Shown in pieces: positions 23,691 through 61,051 of a DNA stretch of 64,000 nt (position 1 is the stretch's first letter; the number at the start of each line of letters is the position of its first letter). The DNA is taken from positions 1,682 through 65,681 of the forward strand of contig JBFMFE010000322.1 of NCBI GenBank assembly GCA_040752295.1, in the 5' to 3' direction. This DNA is from a bacterium (GTDB taxonomy: Bacteria > UBP15 > UBA6099 > JBFMBQ01). The notes beneath the pieces are model-generated. The model saw nothing but the letters and a program-made list of their open reading frames with translations. It made no database searches and was not told the DNA's origin. Made by a program: the position numbers and the translations under genes.

Positions 23691-26600
23691 GTGATCTGTA
23701 GAAGATCAGTTTTTGCGTCTCTTATAGTTATTTTCTGCGCGACCGGCGTTTTCGCGGGCGAATTCACGCGTACGTTTTCACAGGGTTGGCAGCTTGTAAC
23801 CTTTCCTTTTACGTTCGAGAACGCGGGCGACGCCTGCAAGTTGCTCGGCGAACGTGATTTCGCCCTTTTCGGGGTCAGGGACGGCAGGTACATCCCCTGC
23901 ACGGAGGTCGCCGGGATAAACCCGGGGCAGGGTTACTGGGTCCATCTGCCGGCGGGCACGTCAGCGCTCTCCGGAACCCCGGTAAGCGCCGCCGGCGGTT
24001 TCACCATACCGGTATCACCCGGGTGGAACCTTATAGGGAACCCATTCCTTTCCGAAATTGACTTGGTACAGTCGGCGAGCGTCGGCGGCGTGAGCCTGGA
24101 GAACGCGGACGGCGTTTCAGCCGTGGTTTTCGGGTACGACGCCGCGGAAAAGAGATACGCGGCGACCACGGTGCTGAAGCCGTGGGAGGGATATTTTCTC
24201 TATTCCCGCGTCGCCGCGGTCCTCGAACTGTCGCCCCCGACCGATTCCGGCACGCCCGAACCCGCGGCGCCCCAGGTTGTGACGATCCGGATAGAAAGCG
24301 CCCCCGATGGAACCGGGCGGGAAGTCGGTCCGCTTGACCTTCTGCCCGGTGAGGAAGTTACCTTCTGGGCTGCCGGATACGATAAAGCCGGCGGATACCT
24401 GGGTGGCGTCGAAGCGCAATGGGCGGCGGAAGGGACGCTCGGAGCGCTGTCGGCGGCGAGCGGGGTTTCGGTGAGTTACCGCGCGGATTCCGGCGGGAGG
24501 GCGGGGACCGTCGCGGCGGCATACGGTCAGGCGGCGGACTCGACGGGAAGAGTCGTGGTGGTGGATGATTCACCTCTTTCCGCTTATCCCTTCGGCGAGG
24601 AAGACCCCGTGGCGCGCGATGACGCCGGCGTTCCGTACATTTCGGATCAGCTTCTGGTAGCCGTCGCGCCCGGCACTGCCGACGCGCGCGTGGAGGAACT
24701 GGCGGGCGGAATCGGCGCGAAGGTCGTGGGCAGGAACTCCGCTGCTGGCGTGTACCAGTTTAAACTCGAATCCACGACGCCGCAGGACGCCGCCGCCGCC
24801 CTCGACGGGCTTCCCGAAATCAGAACGGCATCGCCCAATTACCTTTTGGCTCCCAGCGCCGTTCCCGCCGACCCCGTCTTCGACGCCGCGGCGCCGTATA
24901 TCGAGAGATGGGGTTTTGAAAAAGTAGGAATGACATCGGTGTGGAAGGAGTACGCCCCCGTCGGCGACCCCGTCATCGCTGTTCTCGACACCGGCGTGGA
25001 CGCTTCTCACCCTGAGCTTGCCGGGAGGGTATCCGGCGGCGTCAATCTTATCTCGCCCGCTGCCGGCACGGGGGACGTTTACGGGCACGGCACGCCGATA
25101 GCGGGCGTGGCGGCAGCGAAGGGCGACAACGCGGCGGGCATCGCCGGGATGTGCTGGAACTGCCGGATAATGCCCGTCAAGGTGTGCACCGACGCCGGCA
25201 CGTGCCCGCTGTTCACCGTGCTCGACGGCATAACGTACGCGGTGAACAACGGGGCGAGGATTGTCAACATCAGCGTGGGCGCCGATTTCCCGTCGGGTTC
25301 TCCCGTGGAGCAAATAGTCCGAGCGATCACGCGCGACGCCTATTACCGCGGCGCTCTTGTCGTTGCCGCGGCGGGCAACGGCGGACACGACTCCGGCACT
25401 TTCCTGCCGGGCGCCGACAGGTATGTTATGTCCGCGGGGGCGTCGGACGAGGACGACCAGCGCGCCTCATTTTCGAACTACGGGACGAGAGTGGACGTCG
25501 CCGCGCCTGGAAAGCAGGTTTACACCACCGGCGCGGGCGGCGGCTATGTTTACCGGAGCGGGACATCGTTCTCCGCCGCGTTCGTATCGGGTCTCGCCGG
25601 GATAGTGCTTTCAATCCACCCGGACATGAGCGTTAACACTCTCAAAAGTTATATTTCATCCAACGTTGACGTGATATCCACGGACCGCCCCATCGGCGGA
25701 AGGATCAACGCCGGGAAGGTTCTTCAGTCGCTGATGAGTTCAAACCTGCCGCCGGTCATTTCGAGCCTTGTCGCGGAAAGGCTGCTGGTGAGGACGGGGG
25801 AGACCGTTCAACTGACGCTTGCGGCGGGCGATCCCGACGGCGACCCGCTGAACGTGGAGTGGAATCCTACCGCCGGGACCGTCGCGCCGGCAGGCGCATG
25901 GTCGCCGGCGTGGCAGGCGCCCGCCTCCCGTGGGGAGATTGTCATCGCCGTCACCGTCAGGGACACGCAGGGTGCGGTGGACGCGGCGGAGATACGCATC
26001 GCGGTGCTGGACGGCGCCGCCGCTGAGGTGAGGATCGAGCCGGATTCGCCGACGGTGGGGCAGGGCGGCACGGTCGCGCTTTCCGCATACGCATACGACG
26101 CGCCCGCACTGGGCGGTACGGCGTCTCCCGTGAGAGTCTATCCCGTATGGAGCGTGACCGGGGGAGTGGGGACTGTTTCGGCGGACGGCGTTTTTGCGGC
26201 GACGAACGCGGGGACGGGCATGGTGACGGCGGCGATTGACGGTCTGACCGGGACGACTTCGGTAACGGTCACGCCGGGTACTTCGCCGTCGCTCACGCCG
26301 GCGGCGACGAACGTTCCCTGCGGCAACGACTGGCCCATGATGGGCTGCAACCTCTCGCGCAACGACCAGTCGTCGCTCGAACTGCCCGGACCGATGACGG
26401 TACGCCAGGTATTCTCAACGGTCGCCAACATGATGGCTGGTCCGTTGATGGTCAACGGCAGGGCTTACGCCGTGGACCTTGGCGGGAACCTGTACTGCAT
26501 CGATCAGAATACCTGGACACAGATATGGACGGTTCCTCTGGCGGGTGGAATTCCCTACAGGTCGCCTGTGGCGGCGAACGGCGCGGTGTACGTACTCAAC

Positions 26601-29600
26601 AACGGAGGAATTCTATACAAACGCAACCTCGACGGCACACCCGTCTGGCAGTACAGCCCCGCTTCGGGGTACGGCGTGGGTTACTCGACGCTGGCAGCCA
26701 CCTCCGATTCAGTGTATTACGTATCGTACAACTTCAGCGGACTCGACGGAGAGGTCATAGCCCTGAACGACGCGGATGGGTCGGAGAAGTGGCCCCCCCT
26801 CAACATCTTGTACCCGTCGCAGTACGTAAGCATCGCGGTGGAGACCGTCGGCGCAACGGAGATGCTTTTTGTCGGGAAGAGGAGACACGACATTGACAAG
26901 CTCAGATACATGGCGGTGAACGCCTCGACCGGCGCGATCGTGTGGGAGCAGGAAGTTGTGATCATCGGGGGATCGTCTTTCAGGGGCTCGCCGGTTGTGG
27001 AGGGTAACGCCCTTTACGCCCTCGAGGAATCCGGGAACATCGTGAAATTCGATGCGACAACGGGGAGTGTAATTTGGGTTCATGATCTCGGGCAGTGGGT
27101 TTACGGTGACATGGCATACAGGGATTCGGTTCTTTACGTCGGCACCATAGACGGGTACGTGCACGCGATTCTTGACAGCGGCTTGACGTCGTCGGAGCTG
27201 TGGGTTTCGGAAAAGTTTGGAGGCGTTGCCGGCGCCGAGTTTTTCGGTGCGCCGGCGATAACCGGCAGTTACGTCATCGCGGGCGGAGTGGGAGCGGGCG
27301 CGCCCGGAACGTTCAAAATCCTCAACCGTGCGGACGGGAGCACGTACCAGACAATCCTGTTCAGCTGCAACTATTCCGACTCGCCCGCGGTCGGTTTTTA
27401 TCCCACAAGCGGCGAAACCGAAATCTACATGACGTGCGACGGTCCCAAGTACGTGATCGCGTTTGAAAGAAACTACCCTCCGAACATAATTTCCCTCAGC
27501 TACACCCCGCCGGGGCAGGTCGTCCCCGGCGGCAGTACGGACGTGTTCGTTCAGGTTGAAGACCCGAACCAATCGGGAGGCACTCCATGCTCCGACATTT
27601 TCGCGGTGGAGATTGACCTCGGGCTGGTGGGGGGGGCGACGGCGACGCTTCTTGACGACGGGTTCCCGCCCGACGCCGCGGCGGACGACTGCCTGTTCAC
27701 CGCGACGATAACCGTCGAGCCGGGCACGTCCGCGGGGCTTAAGCCACTGCTCGTCACCGCGTACGATTACGGAAACTTCACCGATGCCACCGACACTCCG
27801 AACCTGGAGGTGCTCCAATCCGCGCCGACCGTCGTGAGCGTCACGTTCACGCCGCCGGACGTCGTGAACAACGGCGCGGACACCACGCAGGTCTCCGTCG
27901 TTGTCGAAGACCTGAACGACTCGATAAACGCCGTCATGGTTGACCTCGACGAGATAAACGGCGCCTCCGGCACTGAGTGGCTCGACATCACCGCCGGCTG
28001 CGGCGCGTTCTCGACCACCACCCACCAGGTCACGTGCACCTTCGCCGGAATAACCGCCGACCCCAGCACGACGCTCGGTTTCAAGACCATCCCCGGCAGA
28101 GCGATTGACGATTTGTACGACGTCTCCGGCTCACCCACTCCCAACAACTTGGAGGTGATCGACCTCGGCTCGTTCAGGGTGACCGCAAGCCCGACGTCCC
28201 TTCCTGTGAACACCGACACGACCATAACCATCGAAGCCTACGATGACAACGGCAGCCTGATAGACACGTACGTCAACGCCGTCGCGATAGACCTCTCCCA
28301 GACCGGTGCCGCAACGGGGACGACGCTGACCTGGAGCGGGGCGGGAGTGACCAACAACGGGGACGGCACGGGCTTCATCGCCACGGGAACGTTCGTCGCG
28401 GGCGTTGCGACCGTCAAGTTGAAAAACATACGCGCCAACGAAACGATAACCGCCGCCGCCACCAACCCCTCGGACGGGTCAACGGGCAACACGTCCCTGA
28501 CCGGCACCAATGTAACGTGGACGCCGGGTCCGCTCGCTAAATTCGTGGTCACGGCCAATCCCACGACCCCGGTCATCGGAACGGCAGCCACCGTCTCCAT
28601 CAAGGCGTATGACGCGTACGACAACTTCATAGGCACGTACGAAAACGACGACGGCCCGATAGACCTCCAGGCGGAACTCGCGGGGTTTCCATGCCCGAGC
28701 GCGACGATGTGGTGGACGGCTGTTGCGCCGGCGACCATCACCGACCTCGGAGGCGGCTGCGCCACGCTCGAGATGAACAGCTTCGGCGGCGACGGGGAGG
28801 CGCTCGTCAATATCTATAACACCACCGCCGAGGGTCCCGCGAAGATAACCGCCGCGCACAGCCTCTCCGGAGCGACCGGCAACACCAATGAAACCGGAAC
28901 CGACGTCACCTGGGGCACCGGCGTGCTCGATCACTTCGACGTTTACGCGAACCCGTACGCGTCCGTGCCCGCCGGCGCGACGACCACGGTGTACGTCGAG
29001 GCGCACGACGCCTTCCACAACGTCATCACGACCTTCGACAAAGACATGAACATAACGCAGACCGGCGGCACCGCGTCGGCGATAACTTACTCCGGCGCGA
29101 ACATAGTGGACCTGGGGGGCGGCAACGGAAAAATCCTCGGCGCGGCTTTCGTGAGCGGCCTCGCCGAGTTCTACCCGGCGGACACAAAGGCGACCGAAAC
29201 GGTGCGCTTCACGGCGACCGAGCCGACGTCGGGCGCGTCGGGGAACACCGGCGCAGGCGAAAACCCGCCAACCAACACGGACGTCACCTGGGTGCCGGGC
29301 GCGCTCGCGAAATACATCATACGCGATTCTCCCAACGGCGGGGGAAGCGAGCAGGGCAACAAGATCATGGCGGCGGGCGCCTCTCTCACGCTTTATGCCG
29401 CCGGCTACGACCAGTACGACAACCTGCGAGGCGACGACCCCGCGTGCTGGAGCGTCACCGGAACGCTCGACCCGATAGCGACGGGTCCTTTCAGCGTCAA
29501 CACCTTCATCCCGGCACACGAGGGACCGGAAGGCACCATACACGTGGACGCGCCGGCGGCGCCGGGCGACTGCTCGGCGTTCGACCCCGGCGTCGTCACC

Positions 29601-30788
29601 GATGACACCGGCACCATCAAGGTCGGCAGCGACAAGCCCCTGCCCCCGACGCTCACCGCGGTGGGCGGAACGCTCGAAATAAGACTATCCTGGTCTGGTC
29701 CCTTCCAGTACGAGGACGGAACAAGCGTCACCCCGGGGGAACTCGCCACGTTCACGTTCAACGTGTACCGCTCCCTGAGCGCGTCCGGCGTCTGCGATCC
29801 GGGGAACCTTTACGTCACGGGAGTGGGACCCGCGACGAGCACGTACACCGACACCGCCGTCACGTCCTGGGTCACCTACTACTACGTCGTCACCGCAGTC
29901 AACCCCAATGCCCTGCCCACCCCGGAGGAGAGCGAGTGTTCCAACGTGGCGAGCGCCGTCGCGATGGAGCCTGCCTGGACGCTCCTGAGAAAATGCGGGG
30001 AAAACCCGACCGAATACCTGCCGCCGTGGCACACCGACAGGTTCAACCGACCGATGGACGCCGTCGTTGATCCCGCCGGTTTCATTTACGTGGCGGATAT
30101 GGACAACCACCGTATTAAGAAGATAGACATGAACTGCGTTTACATAACCCACTGGGGAACCCTTGGTCCCGAAGACGGGAATTTCCGCCAGCCCATGGGC
30201 ATCGCCTATTCCGGCGGCGAACTCTACGTGGTGGACAACTACAACCGTGTGCAGGTGTTCGACACTAACGGCGTATTCCTGCGCAAATGGGACGTTTCCG
30301 CGCCCGTAGCCATCGAGGCCGCCGCGGGGGCGCTGTTCGTGACGACGAGCAACTGGAAGATAAAAAAGTACGACAGCGTCGGGACGCTGCTGGACACATT
30401 CACCCTCAAAGACCCGAAGGGCATTGCCGCCGACGCCTCCGGGAACCTCTACGTTGCGACATGGGACGACAGCACCATAAGGAAGCTGGACTCGTCCGGC
30501 GCCGCCGTCGCGACGTACGGCGCCTTCGGCTCGGCGTACGGCCAAACAAGGTATCCTTTCGACGTGGACCTCGACTCCGCGGGAAACATGATCATAGCGG
30601 ACGGGACCTATAACAACAGAGTGCAGATATGGAAGCCGGACGGCTCTATTGACAACGTCATCCACCCGAAGTCGAACGATTACGCGACGCTGAACGGTCC
30701 GATGGGGGTGGCGGTCGCCTCCACCGGCGAACTGGTAGTGATGGACACGGACAACAGCCGAGTGCTCATATTTCAGCCGCCGCCGTGA
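23691..30788 (+). CDS. giant secreted multidomain subtilisin-like (S8) serine protease / adhesin-like protein (2365 aa)
   Basis: Signal peptide MICRRSVFASLIVIFCATGVFA, then an I9-like propeptide, then an S8 catalytic domain with the triad in AVLDTGVDASHPEL (Asp), YGHGTPIAGVAAA (His) and GTSFSAAFVSGLAGIV (Ser). Downstream are PKD/Ig-like and Big_2-like domains and a PQQ-type beta-propeller (residues ~880-1250, YCIDQNTWTQIW..., YALEESGNIVKFDATTGSVIW). About seven invasin/Big-like Ig repeats follow (VTASPTSLPVNTDTTITIEAYDDNG...), then an FN3 domain (LEIRLSWSGP...TYYYVVTAVN) and C-terminal NHL repeats (RPMDAVVDPAGFIYVADMDNHRIKKID...). Confidence 0.85.
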   Translation: MICRRSVFASLIVIFCATGVFAGEFTRTFSQGWQLVTFPFTFENAGDACKLLGERDFALFGVRDGRYIPCTEVAGINPGQGYWVHLPAGTSALSGTPVSAAGGFTIPVSPGWNLIGNPFLSEIDLVQSASVGGVSLENADGVSAVVFGYDAAEKRYAATTVLKPWEGYFLYSRVAAVLELSPPTDSGTPEPAAPQVVTIRIESAPDGTGREVGPLDLLPGEEVTFWAAGYDKAGGYLGGVEAQWAAEGTLGALSAASGVSVSYRADSGGRAGTVAAAYGQAADSTGRVVVVDDSPLSAYPFGEEDPVARDDAGVPYISDQLLVAVAPGTADARVEELAGGIGAKVVGRNSAAGVYQFKLESTTPQDAAAALDGLPEIRTASPNYLLAPSAVPADPVFDAAAPYIERWGFEKVGMTSVWKEYAPVGDPVIAVLDTGVDASHPELAGRVSGGVNLISPAAGTGDVYGHGTPIAGVAAAKGDNAAGIAGMCWNCRIMPVKVCTDAGTCPLFTVLDGITYAVNNGARIVNISVGADFPSGSPVEQIVRAITRDAYYRGALVVAAAGNGGHDSGTFLPGADRYVMSAGASDEDDQRASFSNYGTRVDVAAPGKQVYTTGAGGGYVYRSGTSFSAAFVSGLAGIVLSIHPDMSVNTLKSYISSNVDVISTDRPIGGRINAGKVLQSLMSSNLPPVISSLVAERLLVRTGETVQLTLAAGDPDGDPLNVEWNPTAGTVAPAGAWSPAWQAPASRGEIVIAVTVRDTQGAVDAAEIRIAVLDGAAAEVRIEPDSPTVGQGGTVALSAYAYDAPALGGTASPVRVYPVWSVTGGVGTVSADGVFAATNAGTGMVTAAIDGLTGTTSVTVTPGTSPSLTPAATNVPCGNDWPMMGCNLSRNDQSSLELPGPMTVRQVFSTVANMMAGPLMVNGRAYAVDLGGNLYCIDQNTWTQIWTVPLAGGIPYRSPVAANGAVYVLNNGGILYKRNLDGTPVWQYSPASGYGVGYSTLAATSDSVYYVSYNFSGLDGEVIALNDADGSEKWPPLNILYPSQYVSIAVETVGATEMLFVGKRRHDIDKLRYMAVNASTGAIVWEQEVVIIGGSSFRGSPVVEGNALYALEESGNIVKFDATTGSVIWVHDLGQWVYGDMAYRDSVLYVGTIDGYVHAILDSGLTSSELWVSEKFGGVAGAEFFGAPAITGSYVIAGGVGAGAPGTFKILNRADGSTYQTILFSCNYSDSPAVGFYPTSGETEIYMTCDGPKYVIAFERNYPPNIISLSYTPPGQVVPGGSTDVFVQVEDPNQSGGTPCSDIFAVEIDLGLVGGATATLLDDGFPPDAAADDCLFTATITVEPGTSAGLKPLLVTAYDYGNFTDATDTPNLEVLQSAPTVVSVTFTPPDVVNNGADTTQVSVVVEDLNDSINAVMVDLDEINGASGTEWLDITAGCGAFSTTTHQVTCTFAGITADPSTTLGFKTIPGRAIDDLYDVSGSPTPNNLEVIDLGSFRVTASPTSLPVNTDTTITIEAYDDNGSLIDTYVNAVAIDLSQTGAATGTTLTWSGAGVTNNGDGTGFIATGTFVAGVATVKLKNIRANETITAAATNPSDGSTGNTSLTGTNVTWTPGPLAKFVVTANPTTPVIGTAATVSIKAYDAYDNFIGTYENDDGPIDLQAELAGFPCPSATMWWTAVAPATITDLGGGCATLEMNSFGGDGEALVNIYNTTAEGPAKITAAHSLSGATGNTNETGTDVTWGTGVLDHFDVYANPYASVPAGATTTVYVEAHDAFHNVITTFDKDMNITQTGGTASAITYSGANIVDLGGGNGKILGAAFVSGLAEFYPADTKATETVRFTATEPTSGASGNTGAGENPPTNTDVTWVPGALAKYIIRDSPNGGGSEQGNKIMAAGASLTLYAAGYDQYDNLRGDDPACWSVTGTLDPIATGPFSVNTFIPAHEGPEGTIHVDAPAAPGDCSAFDPGVVTDDTGTIKVGSDKPLPPTLTAVGGTLEIRLSWSGPFQYEDGTSVTPGELATFTFNVYRSLSASGVCDPGNLYVTGVGPATSTYTDTAVTSWVTYYYVVTAVNPNALPTPEESECSNVASAVAMEPAWTLLRKCGENPTEYLPPWHTDRFNRPMDAVVDPAGFIYVADMDNHRIKKIDMNCVYITHWGTLGPEDGNFRQPMGIAYSGGELYVVDNYNRVQVFDTNGVFLRKWDVSAPVAIEAAAGALFVTTSNWKIKKYDSVGTLLDTFTLKDPKGIAADASGNLYVATWDDSTIRKLDSSGAAVATYGAFGSAYGQTRYPFDVDLDSAGNMIIADGTYNNRVQIWKPDGSIDNVIHPKSNDYATLNGPMGVAVASTGELVVMDTDNSRVLIFQPPP

Positions 30789-30910
30789 GGTTTCGCGGGG
30801 ACCCCCGCCCCTCGAGCGATTCCCGGGGACGTTCACGGCGACACTGTCGCCGCGTTCCCGAACCCTCCCGCTCCGAAAAAGTTGCAGGTAGTGGTTTTTT
30901 CTCCGGTCGC

Positions 30911-30937
30911 TCAAGTTTTCGCGCCTTATACCGATTA
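30911..30937 (+). promoter_or_regulatory. sigma-28 (FliA)-type promoter upstream of the flagellin gene
   Basis: TCAAGTTT-N11-ACCGATTA compared with the consensus TAAAGTTT-N11-GCCGATAA. The -10 ends 77 nt before the flagellin ATG. Confidence 0.5.
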
Positions 30938-30963
30938 AATAATAGAAGGCGGGATAGACGCCG

Positions 30964-30983
30964 AGGGCGAAAAGGATTTCGCC
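30964..30983 (+). promoter_or_regulatory. 5'-UTR hairpin presenting GGA in its loop (CsrA-binding-site-like) in the flagellin leader
   Basis: GGGCGAAA-AGGA-TTTCGCCC forms a perfect 8-bp stem with a 4-nt AGGA loop. A second GGA lies in the GGGAGG Shine-Dalgarno. This is the two-site arrangement known for CsrA control of flagellin mRNAs such as B. subtilis hag. Confidence 0.35.
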
Positions 30984-31013
30984 CCCATCCGTGACTACAG
31001 GGAGGTAGTTGAG

Positions 31014-32018
31014 ATGATCTCCATTAATACAAATACCACGGCGCAGTACGTATTTAATCAGACCCGGCTCAACAACCTTGTTTTCGGCGAGAAGACCGAG
31101 CGGCTGACGTCGGGCGCCAGGGTGAACAGGGGGGTGGACGACCCCTCCGGGCTTGCCATAAGCGTGGGGATGACGGCACAGATTCGCGGACTGCTCACCG
31201 ACATAGCCAACGTGCAGGACGGGATTTACATGCTCAACTTTCTCGACGGAGTTTTCGACGTTACCCAGGACATACTGATGCGGATGAAGGACATCGCGCT
31301 GCGGCTCGCGAACGAGGCGGTCGTGAGCACGGTCGTTGATCCCACGGAGGTTGTCCCCTCGCAGGCGCGGATGCTGTACGACGAATACTACGGACTTGCG
31401 CAATTAGTGGTGAAGTTCTTCAACACACAGGTGGGAGGACAGCGGTTCCTCCCCTATATCCAGTTTAACGGGAAGCCCATACTGATGAACGATTTTTACA
31501 TAGAGCCTGGCACGGGCAACCTCATACCGCATTATCATCTGCCTTCCGGGGAAGACCTTCAGGTCGGACCCGATAACGATTCGAGCCACAGGATAGAGGT
31601 CAAGACCATGTGGATGGAACAGGTTTTCGACGATTTCGAGGCGTTCTTCCAGCCCCCCCTTCCGAATTTCACCATGAGCTGGTTCAGCGGGTTCGGACGC
31701 ACGCAGGCGTCGAACATAGCCGATAAGATTGACAAGATCAGCGAGGCGCGCGTCGAGGTGGGCACGATAATAAACCGGCTGAGAAAAACGCTCAACGACA
31801 TCTCCGCGCAGTACATAAACGTCTCCGCCGGGAGGTCCCGGATACTGGACGCCGACATGGCGGTGGAGATAACCGAGCTTGCAAAGAATCAGATCAGGAC
31901 GCAGACCACCGTCGCGATGGCAAGCCAGGCGAACGCCGTGCCGCTGATAGCCATGCCACTTCTGGAAGCCATCTACGCGGGTCTCGCGCCGACGCCCGAA
32001 ACGGAAACCTCGCAGTAG
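31014..32018 (+). CDS. flagellin-family protein (divergent)
   Basis: The N-terminus MISINTNTTAQYVFNQTRLNN....ERLTSGARVNRGVDDPSGLAIS parallels flagellin MAQVINTN...LSSGLRINSAKDDAAGQAIA. The C-terminus RSRILDADMAVEITELAKNQIRTQTTVAMASQANAVPLIAMPLL parallels [50 protein letters not shown] Shine-Dalgarno and a sigma-28 promoter upstream. Confidence 0.8.
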   Translation: MISINTNTTAQYVFNQTRLNNLVFGEKTERLTSGARVNRGVDDPSGLAISVGMTAQIRGLLTDIANVQDGIYMLNFLDGVFDVTQDILMRMKDIALRLANEAVVSTVVDPTEVVPSQARMLYDEYYGLAQLVVKFFNTQVGGQRFLPYIQFNGKPILMNDFYIEPGTGNLIPHYHLPSGEDLQVGPDNDSSHRIEVKTMWMEQVFDDFEAFFQPPLPNFTMSWFSGFGRTQASNIADKIDKISEARVEVGTIINRLRKTLNDISAQYINVSAGRSRILDADMAVEITELAKNQIRTQTTVAMASQANAVPLIAMPLLEAIYAGLAPTPETETSQ

Positions 32019-32047
32019 TTTCGATAAATCCTCCTCCATGAGTTTGT

Positions 32048-32080
32048 GCGCCGGCGCCTCCTCGAGTGCCAGCTTTTTTT
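32048..32080 (+). terminator. possible terminator after flagellin (GCGCCGGCGC palindrome followed by a T7 run)
   Basis: 10-nt perfect palindrome at 32048-32057 and TTTTTTT at 32074-32080. The spacing is not canonical. It lies between the convergent flagellin and methyltransferase genes. Confidence 0.25.
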
Positions 32081-32142
32081 CGATTGAAGCGTTTGTGGCT
32101 TTCTTGCGTGATGGGCGATCCTTACGCCGCACGCCCGGTTTT

Positions 32143-33129
32143 TCAGCGGGCTGGTTTCCCGGAAGGCGGACCGGAACGGGTTTTCTTCTTGTCTTCCGTC
32201 CTTTTCTGGAACAACAGCACGTTGTAGTGCACGATGTTGGGGACGTAAGTGTGGGGGTAGCCATAGGGACGGAGTTTCTCCGCCGGGTTCTCCCATATTT
32301 TTTCCCCCCGGAGAACGAACCCCGCCGTTTCAGCCCGCTGCGCGAGCATCGGCGCCGTCTGTATGTATCCCCCGTCCATGAACAGGTTCCTGGTGAACAT
32401 TGCGAGGTGTTTTCCCGGCTTGAGCACCCTGCGGCACGGCGGCAGAATCTGCCCCGCTAAATCGGCGAAAGCCTCCACGGCGCGCCGTCCGTCGTCACCG
32501 GCGGCGGTGAACCACTCCCTCTCCTTCCCCGGGTGGGGAGGGTCGAGAATGACGAAATCAACGGAATCGTCGGGGATGTGCCGGATGAGATGCCGGCAGT
32601 CGCCGTGGACGATCTTGTGTTTTTCTATCCCTTCCGCGGTGCAGAGCGTGTTGTACAACTGGATCCATTCCTGGTTTATCTCGAATCCGATGGATTCCCT
32701 GCCGAGAATCGCCGCCGCCGCCAGCGCGGCGCCCGTGCCCGCAAAGGGGTCGAGGACGAGGTCGCCGGGCATGGTGAAGAAGGCTATGAGCTGCCCCATA
32801 AGGTAGGGACTCTTGTAATCGGGGTGTCTCCGGCGCAGGTTGTGCGCGAGATTCTTCGGCAGTCTGGAAGGGAAGACGGTGCGGGTGAAGCGCAGCCACT
32901 CGCCGCTCGTCAGGTCGTTGAACCTGTTGCGGGGATCGGGTTCTCGTCCCGGCTTGCGGCGGGCGAGGAAGGGAAAGTCGTCTTCCTCCTCCCTCCTGCG
33001 GGCGTCTTCGAGTCTGAACACCTCGAGCAGGTAGAGGAGGTCGCGGCAGGATTCCGCCCTCGCGCATTGCGGGCACATGAATATGGGGCTTCGGCAGTGG
33101 AAGACGTGTTCGCCTTTTTTTTCTTCCAT
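32143..33129 (-). CDS. DNA methyltransferase (PF01555-type N6-adenine/N4-cytosine MTase, permuted motif order, DPPH motif) with N-terminal zinc-ribbon-like Cys cluster
   Basis: VLDPFAGTGAALAAAAILGRESIGFEINQEW matches the FxGxG/AdoMet region. HGDCRHLIRHIPDDSVDFVILDPPHPG....RVLKPGKHLAMF matches the (D/N/S)PP(Y/F/H) catalytic region. The N-terminus has HCRSPIFMCPQCARAESC. No restriction endonuclease gene is adjacent. Confidence 0.7.
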   Translation of the reverse strand: MEEKKGEHVFHCRSPIFMCPQCARAESCRDLLYLLEVFRLEDARRREEEDDFPFLARRKPGREPDPRNRFNDLTSGEWLRFTRTVFPSRLPKNLAHNLRRRHPDYKSPYLMGQLIAFFTMPGDLVLDPFAGTGAALAAAAILGRESIGFEINQEWIQLYNTLCTAEGIEKHKIVHGDCRHLIRHIPDDSVDFVILDPPHPGKEREWFTAAGDDGRRAVEAFADLAGQILPPCRRVLKPGKHLAMFTRNLFMDGGYIQTAPMLAQRAETAGFVLRGEKIWENPAEKLRPYGYPHTYVPNIVHYNVLLFQKRTEDKKKTRSGPPSGKPAR

Positions 33130-59866: not shown

Positions 59867-61051
59867 TCACTTCACCTGTGTCTCGACCAGGCTGCCCGAG
59901 AAACCCGTGATTTCGAGCTTGAACCTTCCGAGGTCGAGTTCGGAGAGCTTTTCCGCGAAAACCTCGGGGCTGAACTCGGATTCGGCTTCGAGCGTGGACA
60001 GTCCGCCCGACTCGAACCCGCGCTGCACGACGCCACGCGTTCCCCTCATTCCCGCAACGGCGTCCTTGATCTTTTTGAATTGAATGAAATCCGCGCCGGA
60101 GACTTTGATCAGTATGACGTTTCTTGCTTCGCCCCCTTCGCCCGCCATGATTCCGACGAGCGAGCGCACGAGCTTCTCGCCGGCGGACTGTATGGCGCGC
60201 TTGCTGCCGATGTCGTCCGAAATGCCGATCCCGGGTGCGATCGCCTGGTCGTCGGCGAGGATGACGCCCGTGGTGACGTTCACCACCCTCGCCGTGAGCG
60301 CGGCGGTGCACGAGGAAAGCCCTTCGTCTTCCTCCTCGTCGTAGGGGTTGATGTCGCTCGTGCACTCCTCGACCGCGGCTTCGCCGATTATGAGGAACTC
60401 CGAGTCGTAGCGCTGGGCGACGAGCTGCGCCGAGCGTTCGTTCCCCCGCACCGCCTCGCGCGCCATGTCGCGCTCCTGAATCCGCTCGATCGCCGTTGAA
60501 TCCAGCGGATTGGTAAAGCAGGATTCCTTGAGGCGCTTGACGATCTCGGATTCGGCGAACGGACGTTCGCTGCGCCTCCCGAGGACCGTCTCGCTCATCA
60601 GCACCATCACCCGCGGCTTGTGCCACCGCTCCTGCAGAAAGCAGAGACTCCCCATCTTCTTTATGATTTCCCTCACGGCGTCCACCGGCAGGGTCTCCGC
60701 CCTGATGACAGTTTTGTAAAGGGTTCCCGTCTGCTCCTCGCCGGTGATCTCGTAGCTTTTCACGAATCCCTCGGCGCGGGCGTACACCTCGTCCAGCGCT
60801 TCCTCCAGACCTTCCACCACGGTTGTGGATTCTATGTAGGTCCCCACGCCCTGCTCGACGGCTTTCCTCTTCGCGTCCTCGAGCGCCTCATCCCGCGCAG
60901 CGGCAGTGTCTCCGCCCCGTATCGTCGCGACGCCCTCCACTTCCACTGTGACCGCCTCCTCCGCCGCTGAAGTGGCGCCGCGGAGTGTTCCGGCGGCGAC
61001 GATCAGGACGAGAACGGCGGCGATGGTCAGCGCGTAATCGTGTCTTTTCAT
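59867..61051 (-). CDS. secreted hypothetical protein (N-terminal domain with LPP20/FlgP-like AxxAAxxDAxRKAVEQ pattern)
   Basis: Signal peptide ALTIAAVLVLIVAAGTLRG. VEGVATIRGGDTAAARDEALEDAKRKAVEQGVGTYIES resembles the LPP20/FlgP lipoprotein family motif. The rest is acidic. Confidence 0.5.
   Translation of the reverse strand: MKRHDYALTIAAVLVLIVAAGTLRGATSAAEEAVTVEVEGVATIRGGDTAAARDEALEDAKRKAVEQGVGTYIESTTVVEGLEEALDEVYARAEGFVKSYEITGEEQTGTLYKTVIRAETLPVDAVREIIKKMGSLCFLQERWHKPRVMVLMSETVLGRRSERPFAESEIVKRLKESCFTNPLDSTAIERIQERDMAREAVRGNERSAQLVAQRYDSEFLIIGEAAVEECTSDINPYDEEEDEGLSSCTAALTARVVNVTTGVILADDQAIAPGIGISDDIGSKRAIQSAGEKLVRSLVGIMAGEGGEARNVILIKVSGADFIQFKKIKDAVAGMRGTRGVVQRGFESGGLSTLEAESEFSPEVFAEKLSELDLGRFKLEITGFSGSLVETQVK

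What the first reader, a model, noticed from the sequence alone, without database searches (positions are those of the whole stretch)
30789..32090. Solitary, divergent flagellin gene carrying a sigma-28 promoter and a CsrA-type GGA hairpin, with no other flagellar genes in the window
The 334-aa ORF has the conserved flagellin N- and C-terminal helical segments. The middle region is short and its core is divergent (GLAISVGMTAQIRGL in place of GQAIANRFT.NIKGL). A FliA-like promoter lies upstream (TCAAGTTT-N11-ACCGATTA at 30911-30937). The leader contains a perfect 8-bp hairpin displaying AGGA in its loop (30964-30983), plus a second GGA in the Shine-Dalgarno. That is the architecture CsrA uses to repress hag/flaB-type flagellin mRNAs. 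None of the 60 kb around it encodes a flagellar component. The gene immediately follows a 7.1-kb secreted protease gene. So this is either a remote flagellin locus of a flagellated organism or a flagellin-fold protein co-opted for another surface structure.
Basis: partly seen in the sequence, partly recalled or inferred. Interest (0 to 1): 0.5.

Follow-up and report, generated by a model that had tools for sequence, protein, structure and literature searches.

The report
Stand-alone flagellin gene with CsrA-type leader
This is an ordinary, working flagellin gene of an uncultured flagellated bacterium, sitting alone on the chromosome and carrying the well-known sigma-28 promoter plus two-hairpin CsrA control region; its only unusual trait is a conserved extra tail on the protein.

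Summary
ORF 31014-32018 is a 334-aa flagellin with significant Pfam N and C domains and a complete predicted D0/D1 fold. A sigma-28-type promoter lies at 30911-30937. A second GGA sits in a hexaloop hairpin over the Shine-Dalgarno. None of this is chance: orthologues at 39-50% identity keep the promoter, both hairpins (with compensatory stem changes) and the motif CTAC-ARGGAG-GTAG. A GGA-loop hairpin lies 25-60 nt upstream of the ATG in 15 of 19 lineage flagellin leaders, against 5-9% of control regions. The orthologues are also solitary. Relatives' genomes carry flgA-flgH-flgI-flgJ-flgN-flgK-flgL-fliW-csrA-flagellin clusters and motAB. A lineage-type csrA-fliW pair has GenBank accessions about 2,200 below the window's flagellin, so it is probably in the same MAG. 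The co-opted-fold alternative is not. The architecture matches B. subtilis hag and C. jejuni flaA, so this is a new member of a known kind. The unexplained feature is a clade-specific C-terminal extension (PLLEAIY-GL plus a variable tail). FliA itself was never observed.

The parts
30911..30937 (+). sigma-28 (FliA/SigD)-type promoter, TCAAGTTT-N11-ACCGATTA. The predicted transcription start is about 30944-30946, which gives a leader of about 70 nt.
   Evidence: Only hit in the window at up to 3 mismatches. The same motif lies upstream of orthologues: L002 TAAAGTTT-N11-TCCGATGT, L005 TAAAGTTT-N11-ACCGATAT, L006 and L013 TAAAGTTT-N12-GCCGATT, L001 TCAAGTTT-N11-GCCGTATA. A strict pattern matches 10 of 21 lineage flagellin leaders against 3.2% of other upstream regions. 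The transcription start is inferred, not mapped.
30965..30984 (+). Leader hairpin 1 (proposed CsrA site 1): 8-bp stem GGGCGAAA/TTTCGCCC with loop AGGA (30973-30976).
   Evidence: It is conserved at about -50 to -30 from the ATG with different stems: L002 GGACAGAA[GGGA]TTCTGTCC, L013 CGGAACAAA[ACGGAA]TTTGTTCCG, L012 GGGGCGGAA[GGGA]TTCCGTCCT, L014 GCCGGATA[AGGA]TATCCGGT. RNAalifold predicts it, with compensatory changes in 4 of its 8 pairs.
30994..31009 (+). Leader hairpin 2 (proposed CsrA site 2): ACTAC[AGGGAG]GTAGT, a hexaloop carrying GGA (31001-31003) that overlaps the Shine-Dalgarno GGAGG (31001-31005).
   Evidence: CTAC-ARGGAG-GTAG (with C or G at the third base and A, G or T at the sixth) is kept in six orthologous leaders. 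CUACAGGGAGGU matches the SELEX consensus RUACARGGAUGU at 10 of 12 positions, with the same AC/GU-closed hexaloop geometry (PMC7652899).
31014..32018 (+). Flagellin coding sequence, 334 aa. It has D0/D1 domains only, plus small beta inserts and a C-terminal extension of about 17 aa.
   Evidence: Pfam. Best PDB sequence match is B. subtilis Hag, E 1.9e-29. AlphaFold2 model: pLDDT 81.5, helices 8-32, 44-99, 117-136 and 221-321. Foldseek hits are filament flagellins, TM 0.66-0.79 normalised to the target. GC3 is 0.77, like neighbouring genes.
32053..32079 (+). Weak terminator-like hairpin followed by a T-run after the stop codon. The next gene is on the opposite strand, so the transcript should be monocistronic.
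   Evidence: Consensus scan: 5-bp stem, and no more sites were found than in shuffled sequence. This is suggestive only.

Best explanation
This is a functional late-class flagellin gene of a flagellated, diderm, uncultured bacterium. The organism is listed at NCBI only as 'bacterium'; one related MAG is labelled UBP15.

Proposed mechanism:
1. The gene is transcribed alone from a sigma-28 (FliA)-type promoter, giving an mRNA with a leader of about 70 nt.
2. The leader folds into two hairpins that each display GGA in the loop. The two GGA motifs are 27 nt apart, and the second overlaps the Shine-Dalgarno.
3. A CsrA dimer is proposed to bridge both sites and block ribosome binding.
4. FliW relieves the block once flagellin is exported. 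This is the Hag-FliW-CsrA partner switch known from B. subtilis, C. jejuni and B. burgdorferi.

Shown here: flagellin identity and fold; the sequence motifs; their conservation and covariation; csrA, fliW and flagellar structural genes in genomes that carry orthologues.

Inferred: use of FliA, the transcription start, CsrA binding, FliW binding, and presence of csrA and fliW in this exact genome.
For: - Flagellin domains and fold.
- FliW-binding Asn: Hag N255 aligns with N269 here (alignment; role of N255 from PMC12327847). The column is nearly invariant in the 65-sequence alignment.
- Promoter: unique in the window and conserved in orthologues.
- Hairpins: RNAalifold finds both. 94.9% of cells are paired, against 37-47% when the 3' partners are slid. 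Five pairs show changes on both sides.
- Position-specific enrichment: a GGA-loop hairpin lies in -62..-23 in 15 of 19 leaders, against 5-9% of controls. The binomial P is about 5e-13, with some non-independence among leaders.
- Relatives' genomes: DAOSYA MAG flgA-flgH-flgI-flgJ-GT-flgN-flgK-flgL-fliW-csrA-flagellin plus motAB 5 kb from the orthologue; JBFMBQ and JBDRIQ MAGs fliW-csrA-flagellin; L090 the same cluster.
- Own genome: CsrA MEW5945501.1 and FliW MEW5945502.1 against window flagellin MEW5947733.1. Accession proximity was validated on three other MAGs. That FliW is 70% identical to the FliW of the MAG holding the nearest flagellin orthologue.
- Literature: the same two-stem-loop ANGGA leader behind a sigma-28 promoter was shown experimentally for C. 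jejuni flaA (PMC4894983). The CsrA bridging range is 10-63 nt (PMC7652899).
Against: - No fliA or flgM was seen in the window or in any held locus.
- The link between the csrA-fliW contig and this MAG rests only on accession proximity. The gap is 2,231 and could cross into a neighbouring MAG of the same submission.
- Hairpin 1 is an 8-bp GC-rich stem with a 4-nt loop. SELEX ligands mostly had 4 or fewer contiguous base pairs and hexaloops.
- The nearest orthologue, L005, keeps the promoter but has no obvious hairpin 1.
- The window's minimum-free-energy fold of the whole leader does not form hairpin 2 exactly as in the consensus.
- All NCBIfam flagellin models score far below their cut-offs.
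- There are no expression or binding data.
Confidence: 0.72

Rival explanations
1. The gene is a real flagellin gene, but the two conserved leader hairpins act without CsrA. They could be an mRNA-stabilising or Shine-Dalgarno-sequestering structure (for example a thermosensor or a translation-rate limiter), or the target of another RNA-binding protein or sRNA.
For: Hairpin 2 by itself partly sequesters the Shine-Dalgarno. Hairpin 1 is more stable than typical CsrA ligands. No binding data exist. L005 lacks hairpin 1.
Against: The invariant feature across unrelated stems is GGA in the loop. That is what CsrA reads, and a purely structural element does not need it. Site 2 matches the SELEX consensus at 10 of 12 positions with the same loop geometry. 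CsrA and FliW are encoded in every relative examined.
Confidence: 0.15
2. The protein has a flagellin fold but has been co-opted for a non-flagellar surface or secreted structure. It is suggested by the solitary location, the neighbouring giant protease and the unusual C-terminal extension.
For: No flagellar neighbours. A clade-specific C-terminal extension and inserts. All NCBIfam flagellin models score below cut-off.
Against: Complete D0/D1 fold with a conserved N-terminus and conserved polymerisation helices. Flagellar-regulon promoter and CsrA-type leader. The protease neighbour is not conserved in any orthologous locus. Scattered flagellin genes are the rule in this lineage, and the genomes have full flagellar gene sets.
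Confidence: 0.05
3. The sigma-28-like motif is not the working promoter. Transcription would come from another sigma factor, or by read-through from the protease gene.
For: FliA was not found in held sequence. 17% of shuffled windows give a hit of this quality somewhere in 64 kb. L001 has a degenerate -10 element, GCCGTATA. The csrA-adjacent flagellins of relatives lack the motif.
Against: The motif is placed correctly and is conserved in orthologues with different upstream genes. No sigma-70-like site lies on the + strand of the intergenic region.
Confidence: 0.08

Closest known systems
Bacillus subtilis hag (SigD promoter; CsrA sites BS1 and BS2; Hag-FliW-CsrA partner switch)
   Same: Short D0/D1-only flagellin; Hag is the best PDB sequence match. 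Sigma-28-class promoter. One upstream GGA site plus one over the Shine-Dalgarno. The FliW-binding Asn is conserved. The lineage CsrA has the long C-terminus that FliW contacts. Relatives keep the flgK-flgL-fliW-csrA-flagellin gene order.
   Different: This gene is not next to fliW-csrA; it sits alone among housekeeping genes. Identity to Hag is only about 30%. It has a C-terminal extension of about 17 aa. The host is a diderm with L and P rings.
Campylobacter jejuni flaA leader (two stem-loops, each with ANGGA; sigma-28 promoter) (PMC4894983)
   Same: Two adjacent hairpins with GGA in the loops, the second covering the ribosome-binding site. The structure is supported by compensatory changes. 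GGA spacing is in the same range: 21 nt there, 27 nt here. A sigma-28 promoter. The genome also has other flagellin types.
   Different: The leader is longer (about 70 nt against 45 nt). Hairpin 1 has a tetraloop on an 8-bp stem. The flagellin is much shorter, with no D2/D3 domains. Nothing has been tested experimentally.
Spirochaete flaB genes (B. burgdorferi flaB-CsrA-FliW-FliS circuit; T. denticola multiple scattered flagellins) (PMC12327847, PMC9481697)
   Same: Several flagellin paralogues scattered around the genome. The best structural match is the Leptospira FlaB core. The covariance model of the leader weakly hits spirochaete flagellin leaders, for example L085 at E 5e-6.
   Different: Relatives encode FlgH and FlgI, which suggests an external flagellum (inferred, not observed). 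B. burgdorferi lacks FliA, whereas this gene has a sigma-28 motif.

Membership tests
Bacterial flagellin (Pfam PF00669 + PF00700) | Significant N-terminal and C-terminal helical-region domains | tested here: met
   58 bits (cut-off 26.6) and 64.5 bits (cut-off 23).
Bacterial flagellin (Pfam PF00669 + PF00700) | Complete D0/D1 helical fold as in filament-forming flagellins | tested here: met
   AlphaFold2 pLDDT 81.5. Foldseek hits filament flagellins 9lrz, 9oxj and 5wj*, E about 1e-10, TM 0.66-0.79 normalised to the target.
Bacterial flagellin (Pfam PF00669 + PF00700) | Polymerises into the flagellar filament | not testable with these tools
   Needs filament proteomics or cryo-EM.
Named flagellin subfamilies (NCBIfam Hag, LafA, FliC/FljB, FlaA/B) | Score above the curated cut-off of any model | tested here: not met
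   the best scores are 115 bits, against cut-offs of 352-365. The protein belongs to a separate small clade (P0001-P0012).
Sigma-28 (FliA/SigD) regulon, class III flagellar genes | Promoter matching TAAAGTTT-N11-GCCGATAA at a suitable distance from the start codon | tested here: met
   13 of 16 positions, unique in the window, conserved in orthologues.
Sigma-28 (FliA/SigD) regulon, class III flagellar genes | fliA (and flgM) encoded in the genome | not testable with these tools
   Only the window is available. None was found in the window or in about 1.2 Mb of held loci.
Sigma-28 (FliA/SigD) regulon, class III flagellar genes | Transcription start downstream of the -10 element and dependence on FliA | not testable with these tools
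   Needs 5'-RACE, dRNA-seq or in-vitro transcription.
CsrA-repressed flagellin leaders (hag / flaA / flaB type) | GGA displayed in a hairpin loop upstream of the Shine-Dalgarno | tested here: met
   30965-30984. Conserved with covariation. Present in 15 of 19 leaders against 5-9% of background regions.
CsrA-repressed flagellin leaders (hag / flaA / flaB type) | Second GGA site overlapping the Shine-Dalgarno, within the bridging distance of 10-63 nt | tested here: met
   GGA at 31001-31003, 27 nt from the first. Matches the SELEX consensus at 10 of 12 positions.
CsrA-repressed flagellin leaders (hag / flaA / flaB type) | csrA and fliW present in the same genome | tested here: inconclusive
   Met in four related genomes. 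For this MAG there is only accession proximity: MEW5945501 and MEW5945502 against MEW5947733.
CsrA-repressed flagellin leaders (hag / flaA / flaB type) | Flagellin keeps the asparagine required for FliW binding (Hag N255) | tested here: met
   N269 aligns with Hag N255. Its role is described in PMC12327847.
CsrA-repressed flagellin leaders (hag / flaA / flaB type) | CsrA binds the leader and represses translation | not testable with these tools
   Needs gel shift, footprinting, toeprinting or reporter assays.

The most novel reading that the evidence does not exclude
The flagellins with the extension (...PLLEAIY-GL plus a variable tail of 6-15 aa, and DDPSGL in place of DDAAGL) may be a distinct structural subtype. 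The extension continues the C-terminal D0 helix past the point where known flagellins end, so it would have to be accommodated in or near the filament's inner tube. If so, these proteins could build a filament with a modified core or lumen, or act as a specialised component alongside the canonical csrA-linked flagellin in a multi-flagellin candidate phylum. They could also change how FliS or FliW is recognised.
Probability: 0.15. Interest if true: 0.5.

Novelty: new member of a known kind. Interest (0 to 1): 0.27.

Why it matters
It extends the sigma-28 plus CsrA/FliW flagellin-homeostasis architecture to an uncultured lineage that NCBI lists only as unclassified 'bacterium'. The architecture was worked out in Bacillus, Campylobacter and Borrelia. 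It also shows that the two-hairpin GGA leader travels with flagellin genes even when they are scattered far from fliW-csrA. This supports the view that the circuit is ancestral and widespread, but it does not change that view. The comparative set of leaders gives a clean, covariation-supported RNA motif that could be turned into a family model. The conserved C-terminal extension is a small structural puzzle for flagellar filament specialists.

Tried and rejected
- Exact look-ups of the window flagellin, P0001 and the FliW P0160 in the gene-position index found nothing. The window's own assembly could therefore not be read.
- The window's genome is not among the GTDB representatives scanned. 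The best hit there is 40% identical.
- A phmmer search with E. coli FliA over all held loci found no sigma-28 gene.
- Rfam has no family matching the leader.
- The covariance model built from six leaders is too sequence-specific. It recovers only its own members strongly, plus weak spirochaete hits.
- A functional link to the upstream protease was rejected, because no orthologue has that neighbour.
- Hairpin 1 as a terminator of the protease gene was rejected. It lies downstream of the promoter, has no T-run, and is conserved where the upstream genes differ.
- The FlgT_N hit at 59867-61051 was checked. The protein is closer to a LipL46-like lipoprotein and was not counted as a flagellar gene.
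- A literature search for UBP15 gave nothing useful on motility.
Full report
**1. Observation**

The window region 30600-32300 holds an ATG-initiated ORF at 31014-32018 encoding 334 aa.
- Pfam finds Flagellin_N at residues 4-103 (E 1.4e-15) and Flagellin_C at residues 234-316 (E 1.1e-17). Both score well above the gathering cut-offs.
- All NCBIfam flagellin models hit, but far below their curated cut-offs.
- The best solved relative by sequence is B. subtilis Hag, E 1.9e-29.
- Codon-position GC (GC3 0.77) is like that of the neighbours, so the gene is native.

It is the only match to TAAAGTTT-N11-GCCGATAA at up to 3 mismatches in the 64-kb window, where 0.18 are expected.

Its free energy is about -12.3 kcal/mol.

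The second GGA (31001-31003) is in GGGAGG, 8 nt before the ATG. It sits in its own small hairpin, ACTAC[AGGGAG]GTAGT, at 30994-31009.

**2. Surroundings**

Pfam and NCBIfam scans of about 50 ORFs show housekeeping, transport and metabolic genes and no flagellar genes.
- Upstream is a 2365-aa S8 subtilase with beta-propeller and NHL repeats and a signal-peptide-like N-terminus.
- Downstream, on the other strand, is an N6/N4 DNA methyltransferase.
- The only flagellum-flavoured hit is a FlgT_N domain (36 bits) in ORF 59867-61051. That protein resembles the lipoprotein LipL46 more.

**3. The protein**

The exact protein is in GenBank as 'MAG: flagellin [bacterium]', MEW5947733.1, on a 68.8-kb contig. 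It belongs to a small clade (P0002-P0012, 36-50% identity, 303-355 aa), all from unclassified MAGs or metagenomes. Beyond that clade, similarity drops to generic flagellins at about 30%.

The alignment shows a complete D0/D1 layout:
- N-terminal D0;
- the motif DDPSGLAIS.GM.AQIRG;
- ND1b ending in FNGKP;
- the beta-hairpin motif LQVGPDN;
- CD1/CD0 with the DADMA motif.

There are short clade-specific inserts. There is also a conserved C-terminal extension, PLLEAIY(D/A)GL plus a variable tail, after the point where canonical flagellins stop.

AlphaFold2 on a 65-sequence alignment gives pLDDT 81.5. It predicts helices 8-32, 44-99, 117-136 and 221-321, a small beta region at 137-200 and a disordered last 13 residues. 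Foldseek against the PDB returns only filament flagellins: Leptospira FlaB core, Shewanella FlaA/FlaB, B. subtilis Hag and others.

The asparagine needed for FliW binding is N255 in Hag, N237 in T. pallidum FlaB and N287 in B. burgdorferi FlaB (PMC12327847). It aligns with N269 here.

It is not unusual outside the enterobacteria.

**4. Comparative test of the regulatory signals**

Contigs encoding clade members were fetched. In all of them the flagellin gene is solitary among unrelated housekeeping genes, so 'solitary' is a trait of the lineage. Despite the different neighbours, the upstream regions keep the same layout:
- a sigma-28-type motif, T(A/C)AAGTTT-N11/12-(G/A/T)CCGAT;
- a hairpin 30-55 nt before the ATG whose loop contains GGA and whose stem sequence differs between loci;
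- the block CTAC-ARGGAG-GTAG over the Shine-Dalgarno.

The stem-and-loop sequences of hairpin 1 are:

| Locus | Hairpin 1 |
|---|---|
| window | GGGCGAAA[AGGA]TTTCGCCC |
| L002 | GGACAGAA[GGGA]TTCTGTCC |
| L012 | GGGGCGGAA[GGGA]TTCCGTCCT |
| L013 | CGGAACAAA[ACGGAA]TTTGTTCCG |
| L014 | GCCGGATA[AGGA]TATCCGGT |
| L016 | CGGGTC[ACGGAC]GACCCG |
| L020 | GGGCA[TGGA]TGCCC |

A GGA-loop hairpin with a stem of at least 5 bp lies within -62..-23 in 15 of 19 leaders. The rate is 5.2% in shuffled segments, 8.9% upstream of other long ORFs in the same loci and 6.4% in random windows. The binomial P is about 5e-13, although some leaders are near-duplicates.

RNAalifold on six orthologous leaders predicts both hairpins. 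94.9% of cells are paired, against 37-47% when the 3' partners are slid. Five pairs change on both sides, and 0 of 500 shuffles reach the observed covariation score.

A strict sigma-28 pattern occurs in 10 of 21 lineage flagellin leaders, against 3.2% of other upstream regions.

The nearest orthologue, L005, keeps the promoter but lacks an obvious hairpin 1. L001 has a degenerate -10 element, GCCGTATA.

**5. Is the organism flagellated, and does it have CsrA and FliW?**

- The orthologue P0007 lies 5 kb from motA-motB, with the MotB plug domain.
- A second contig of the same MAG (DAOSYA, L034) encodes flgA, flgH, flgI, a rod-binding FlgJ-like protein, a glycosyltransferase, flgN, flgK, flgL, fliW, csrA and a 282-aa flagellin.
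- The same cluster is on an 850-kb metagenomic contig, L090.
- The MAGs holding the two closest orthologues, JBFMBQ (P0002) and JBDRIQ (P0004), each have fliW-csrA-flagellin. RA.bin91 has it too (L027).
- The lineage therefore encodes L and P rings, which suggests an external diderm flagellum, together with the FliW-CsrA module in the B. subtilis gene order.
- Several flagellin paralogues per genome are the rule.

The window's own assembly could not be read. However, a lineage-type FliW (P0160, MEW5945502.1) and CsrA (P0238, MEW5945501.1) lie together on a 52-kb contig. Their accessions are about 2,230 below the window flagellin's.

In three other MAGs, proximity of accession numbers correctly predicted membership of the same assembly. 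P0160 is 70% identical to the FliW of the MAG that has the closest flagellin orthologue.

I regard co-residence as probable but not proven. No fliA or flgM was seen anywhere.

**6. Mechanism**

The layout matches experimentally characterised systems.
- In C. jejuni, the sigma-28-transcribed flaA leader folds into two stem-loops, each with ANGGA in the loop. The second covers the ribosome-binding site. The structure is supported by compensatory changes, and both loops are footprinted by CsrA (PMC4894983).
- In B. subtilis, CsrA occludes the hag Shine-Dalgarno, and FliW switches between Hag and CsrA (PMC6529632).
- B. burgdorferi uses the same circuit (PMC12327847).
- The SELEX consensus is RUACARGGAUGU, typically a hexaloop closed by AC/GU. 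A CsrA dimer bridges sites 10-63 nt apart (PMC7652899).

The window's site 2, CUACAGGGAGGU, matches that consensus at 10 of 12 positions with the same geometry. The two GGA motifs are 27 nt apart. The lineage CsrA proteins have the long C-terminus that FliW contacts.

I therefore propose sigma-28 transcription, repression by a CsrA dimer bridging both loops, and relief by FliW when flagellin is exported. Binding, the transcription start and FliA dependence are all inferred. One weakness is that hairpin 1 is more stable, and has a smaller loop, than typical CsrA ligands.

**7. Rivals**

- A CsrA-independent structural role for the hairpins is possible. It does not explain why GGA is invariant in loops whose stems differ.
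- The co-opted-fold idea is contradicted by the complete fold, the flagellar-regulon signals and the flagellar gene sets of relatives.
- An alternative promoter cannot be excluded without a mapped transcription start.

**8. Novelty and score**

This is a new member of a well-known kind of gene and regulatory circuit, found in an uncultured lineage. The one feature I cannot explain is the conserved C-terminal extension of this flagellin clade. It would have to be accommodated at the D0 inner tube. That is worth a specialist's look but is not established as functionally different. Interest is about 0.27.

Noticed in passing
window 31965-32015 (protein residues 318-334); same region in P0002-P0012: All 12 clade members carry a conserved extension...PLLEAIY(D/A)GL, followed by a variable tail of 6-15 aa. 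It begins where canonical flagellins end (LLR/LLQ). AlphaFold2 continues the helix to residue 321 and leaves the tail disordered. How this fits the filament core is unknown.
   Followed up: partly
window 59867-61051 (-): A 394-aa ORF with a Pfam FlgT_N hit (36 bits, above the cut-off) and a sub-threshold NCBIfam match to the Leptospira lipoprotein LipL46. It is the only flagellum-related hit in the window, and probably a lipoprotein rather than a flagellar part.
   Followed up: partly
L027 1203-1583, L034 9681-9985, L088 2605-2941, L089 10790-11085: The csrA-adjacent canonical flagellins of relatives share a conserved intergenic region of about 300 nt. It has a hairpin, TTTCTGGTGGCTCCAGAAA, and ACAAGGAGGAG at the Shine-Dalgarno, but no sigma-28 motif. 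L034 has a sigma-54 activator just downstream, and L089 has TGGC-N9-TGCA. This may be a sigma-54 versus sigma-28 split between flagellin types, as in Campylobacter and Helicobacter.
   Followed up: no
P0014 (metagenomic protein): A 548-aa protein, 51% identical to part of the query. Its precomputed Pfam hits combine flagellin N/C regions with PD40 and DPP-IV-type beta-propeller domains, so it may be a flagellin fusion.
   Followed up: no
window 23691-30788 (+): A very large (2365 aa) predicted secreted S8 subtilase. It has a fervidolysin-like prodomain, a PQQ/BamB-type beta-propeller and C-terminal NHL repeats. It is not linked to the flagellin in any orthologous locus.
   Followed up: partly
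P0143 / P0144 (MFA6451368.1 / MFA6451365.1, one 7,038-bp contig): Two distinct FliW paralogues of the lineage type lie three genes apart on one contig of a related MAG.
   Followed up: no
L006 4519-5544 and 12970-13950; L008 7441-10831: Relatives carry further flagellin paralogues nearby: a second one 7.5 kb away on the opposite strand in L006, and three in tandem in L008. Several MAGs hold 3-6 flagellin genes on different contigs.
   Followed up: partly
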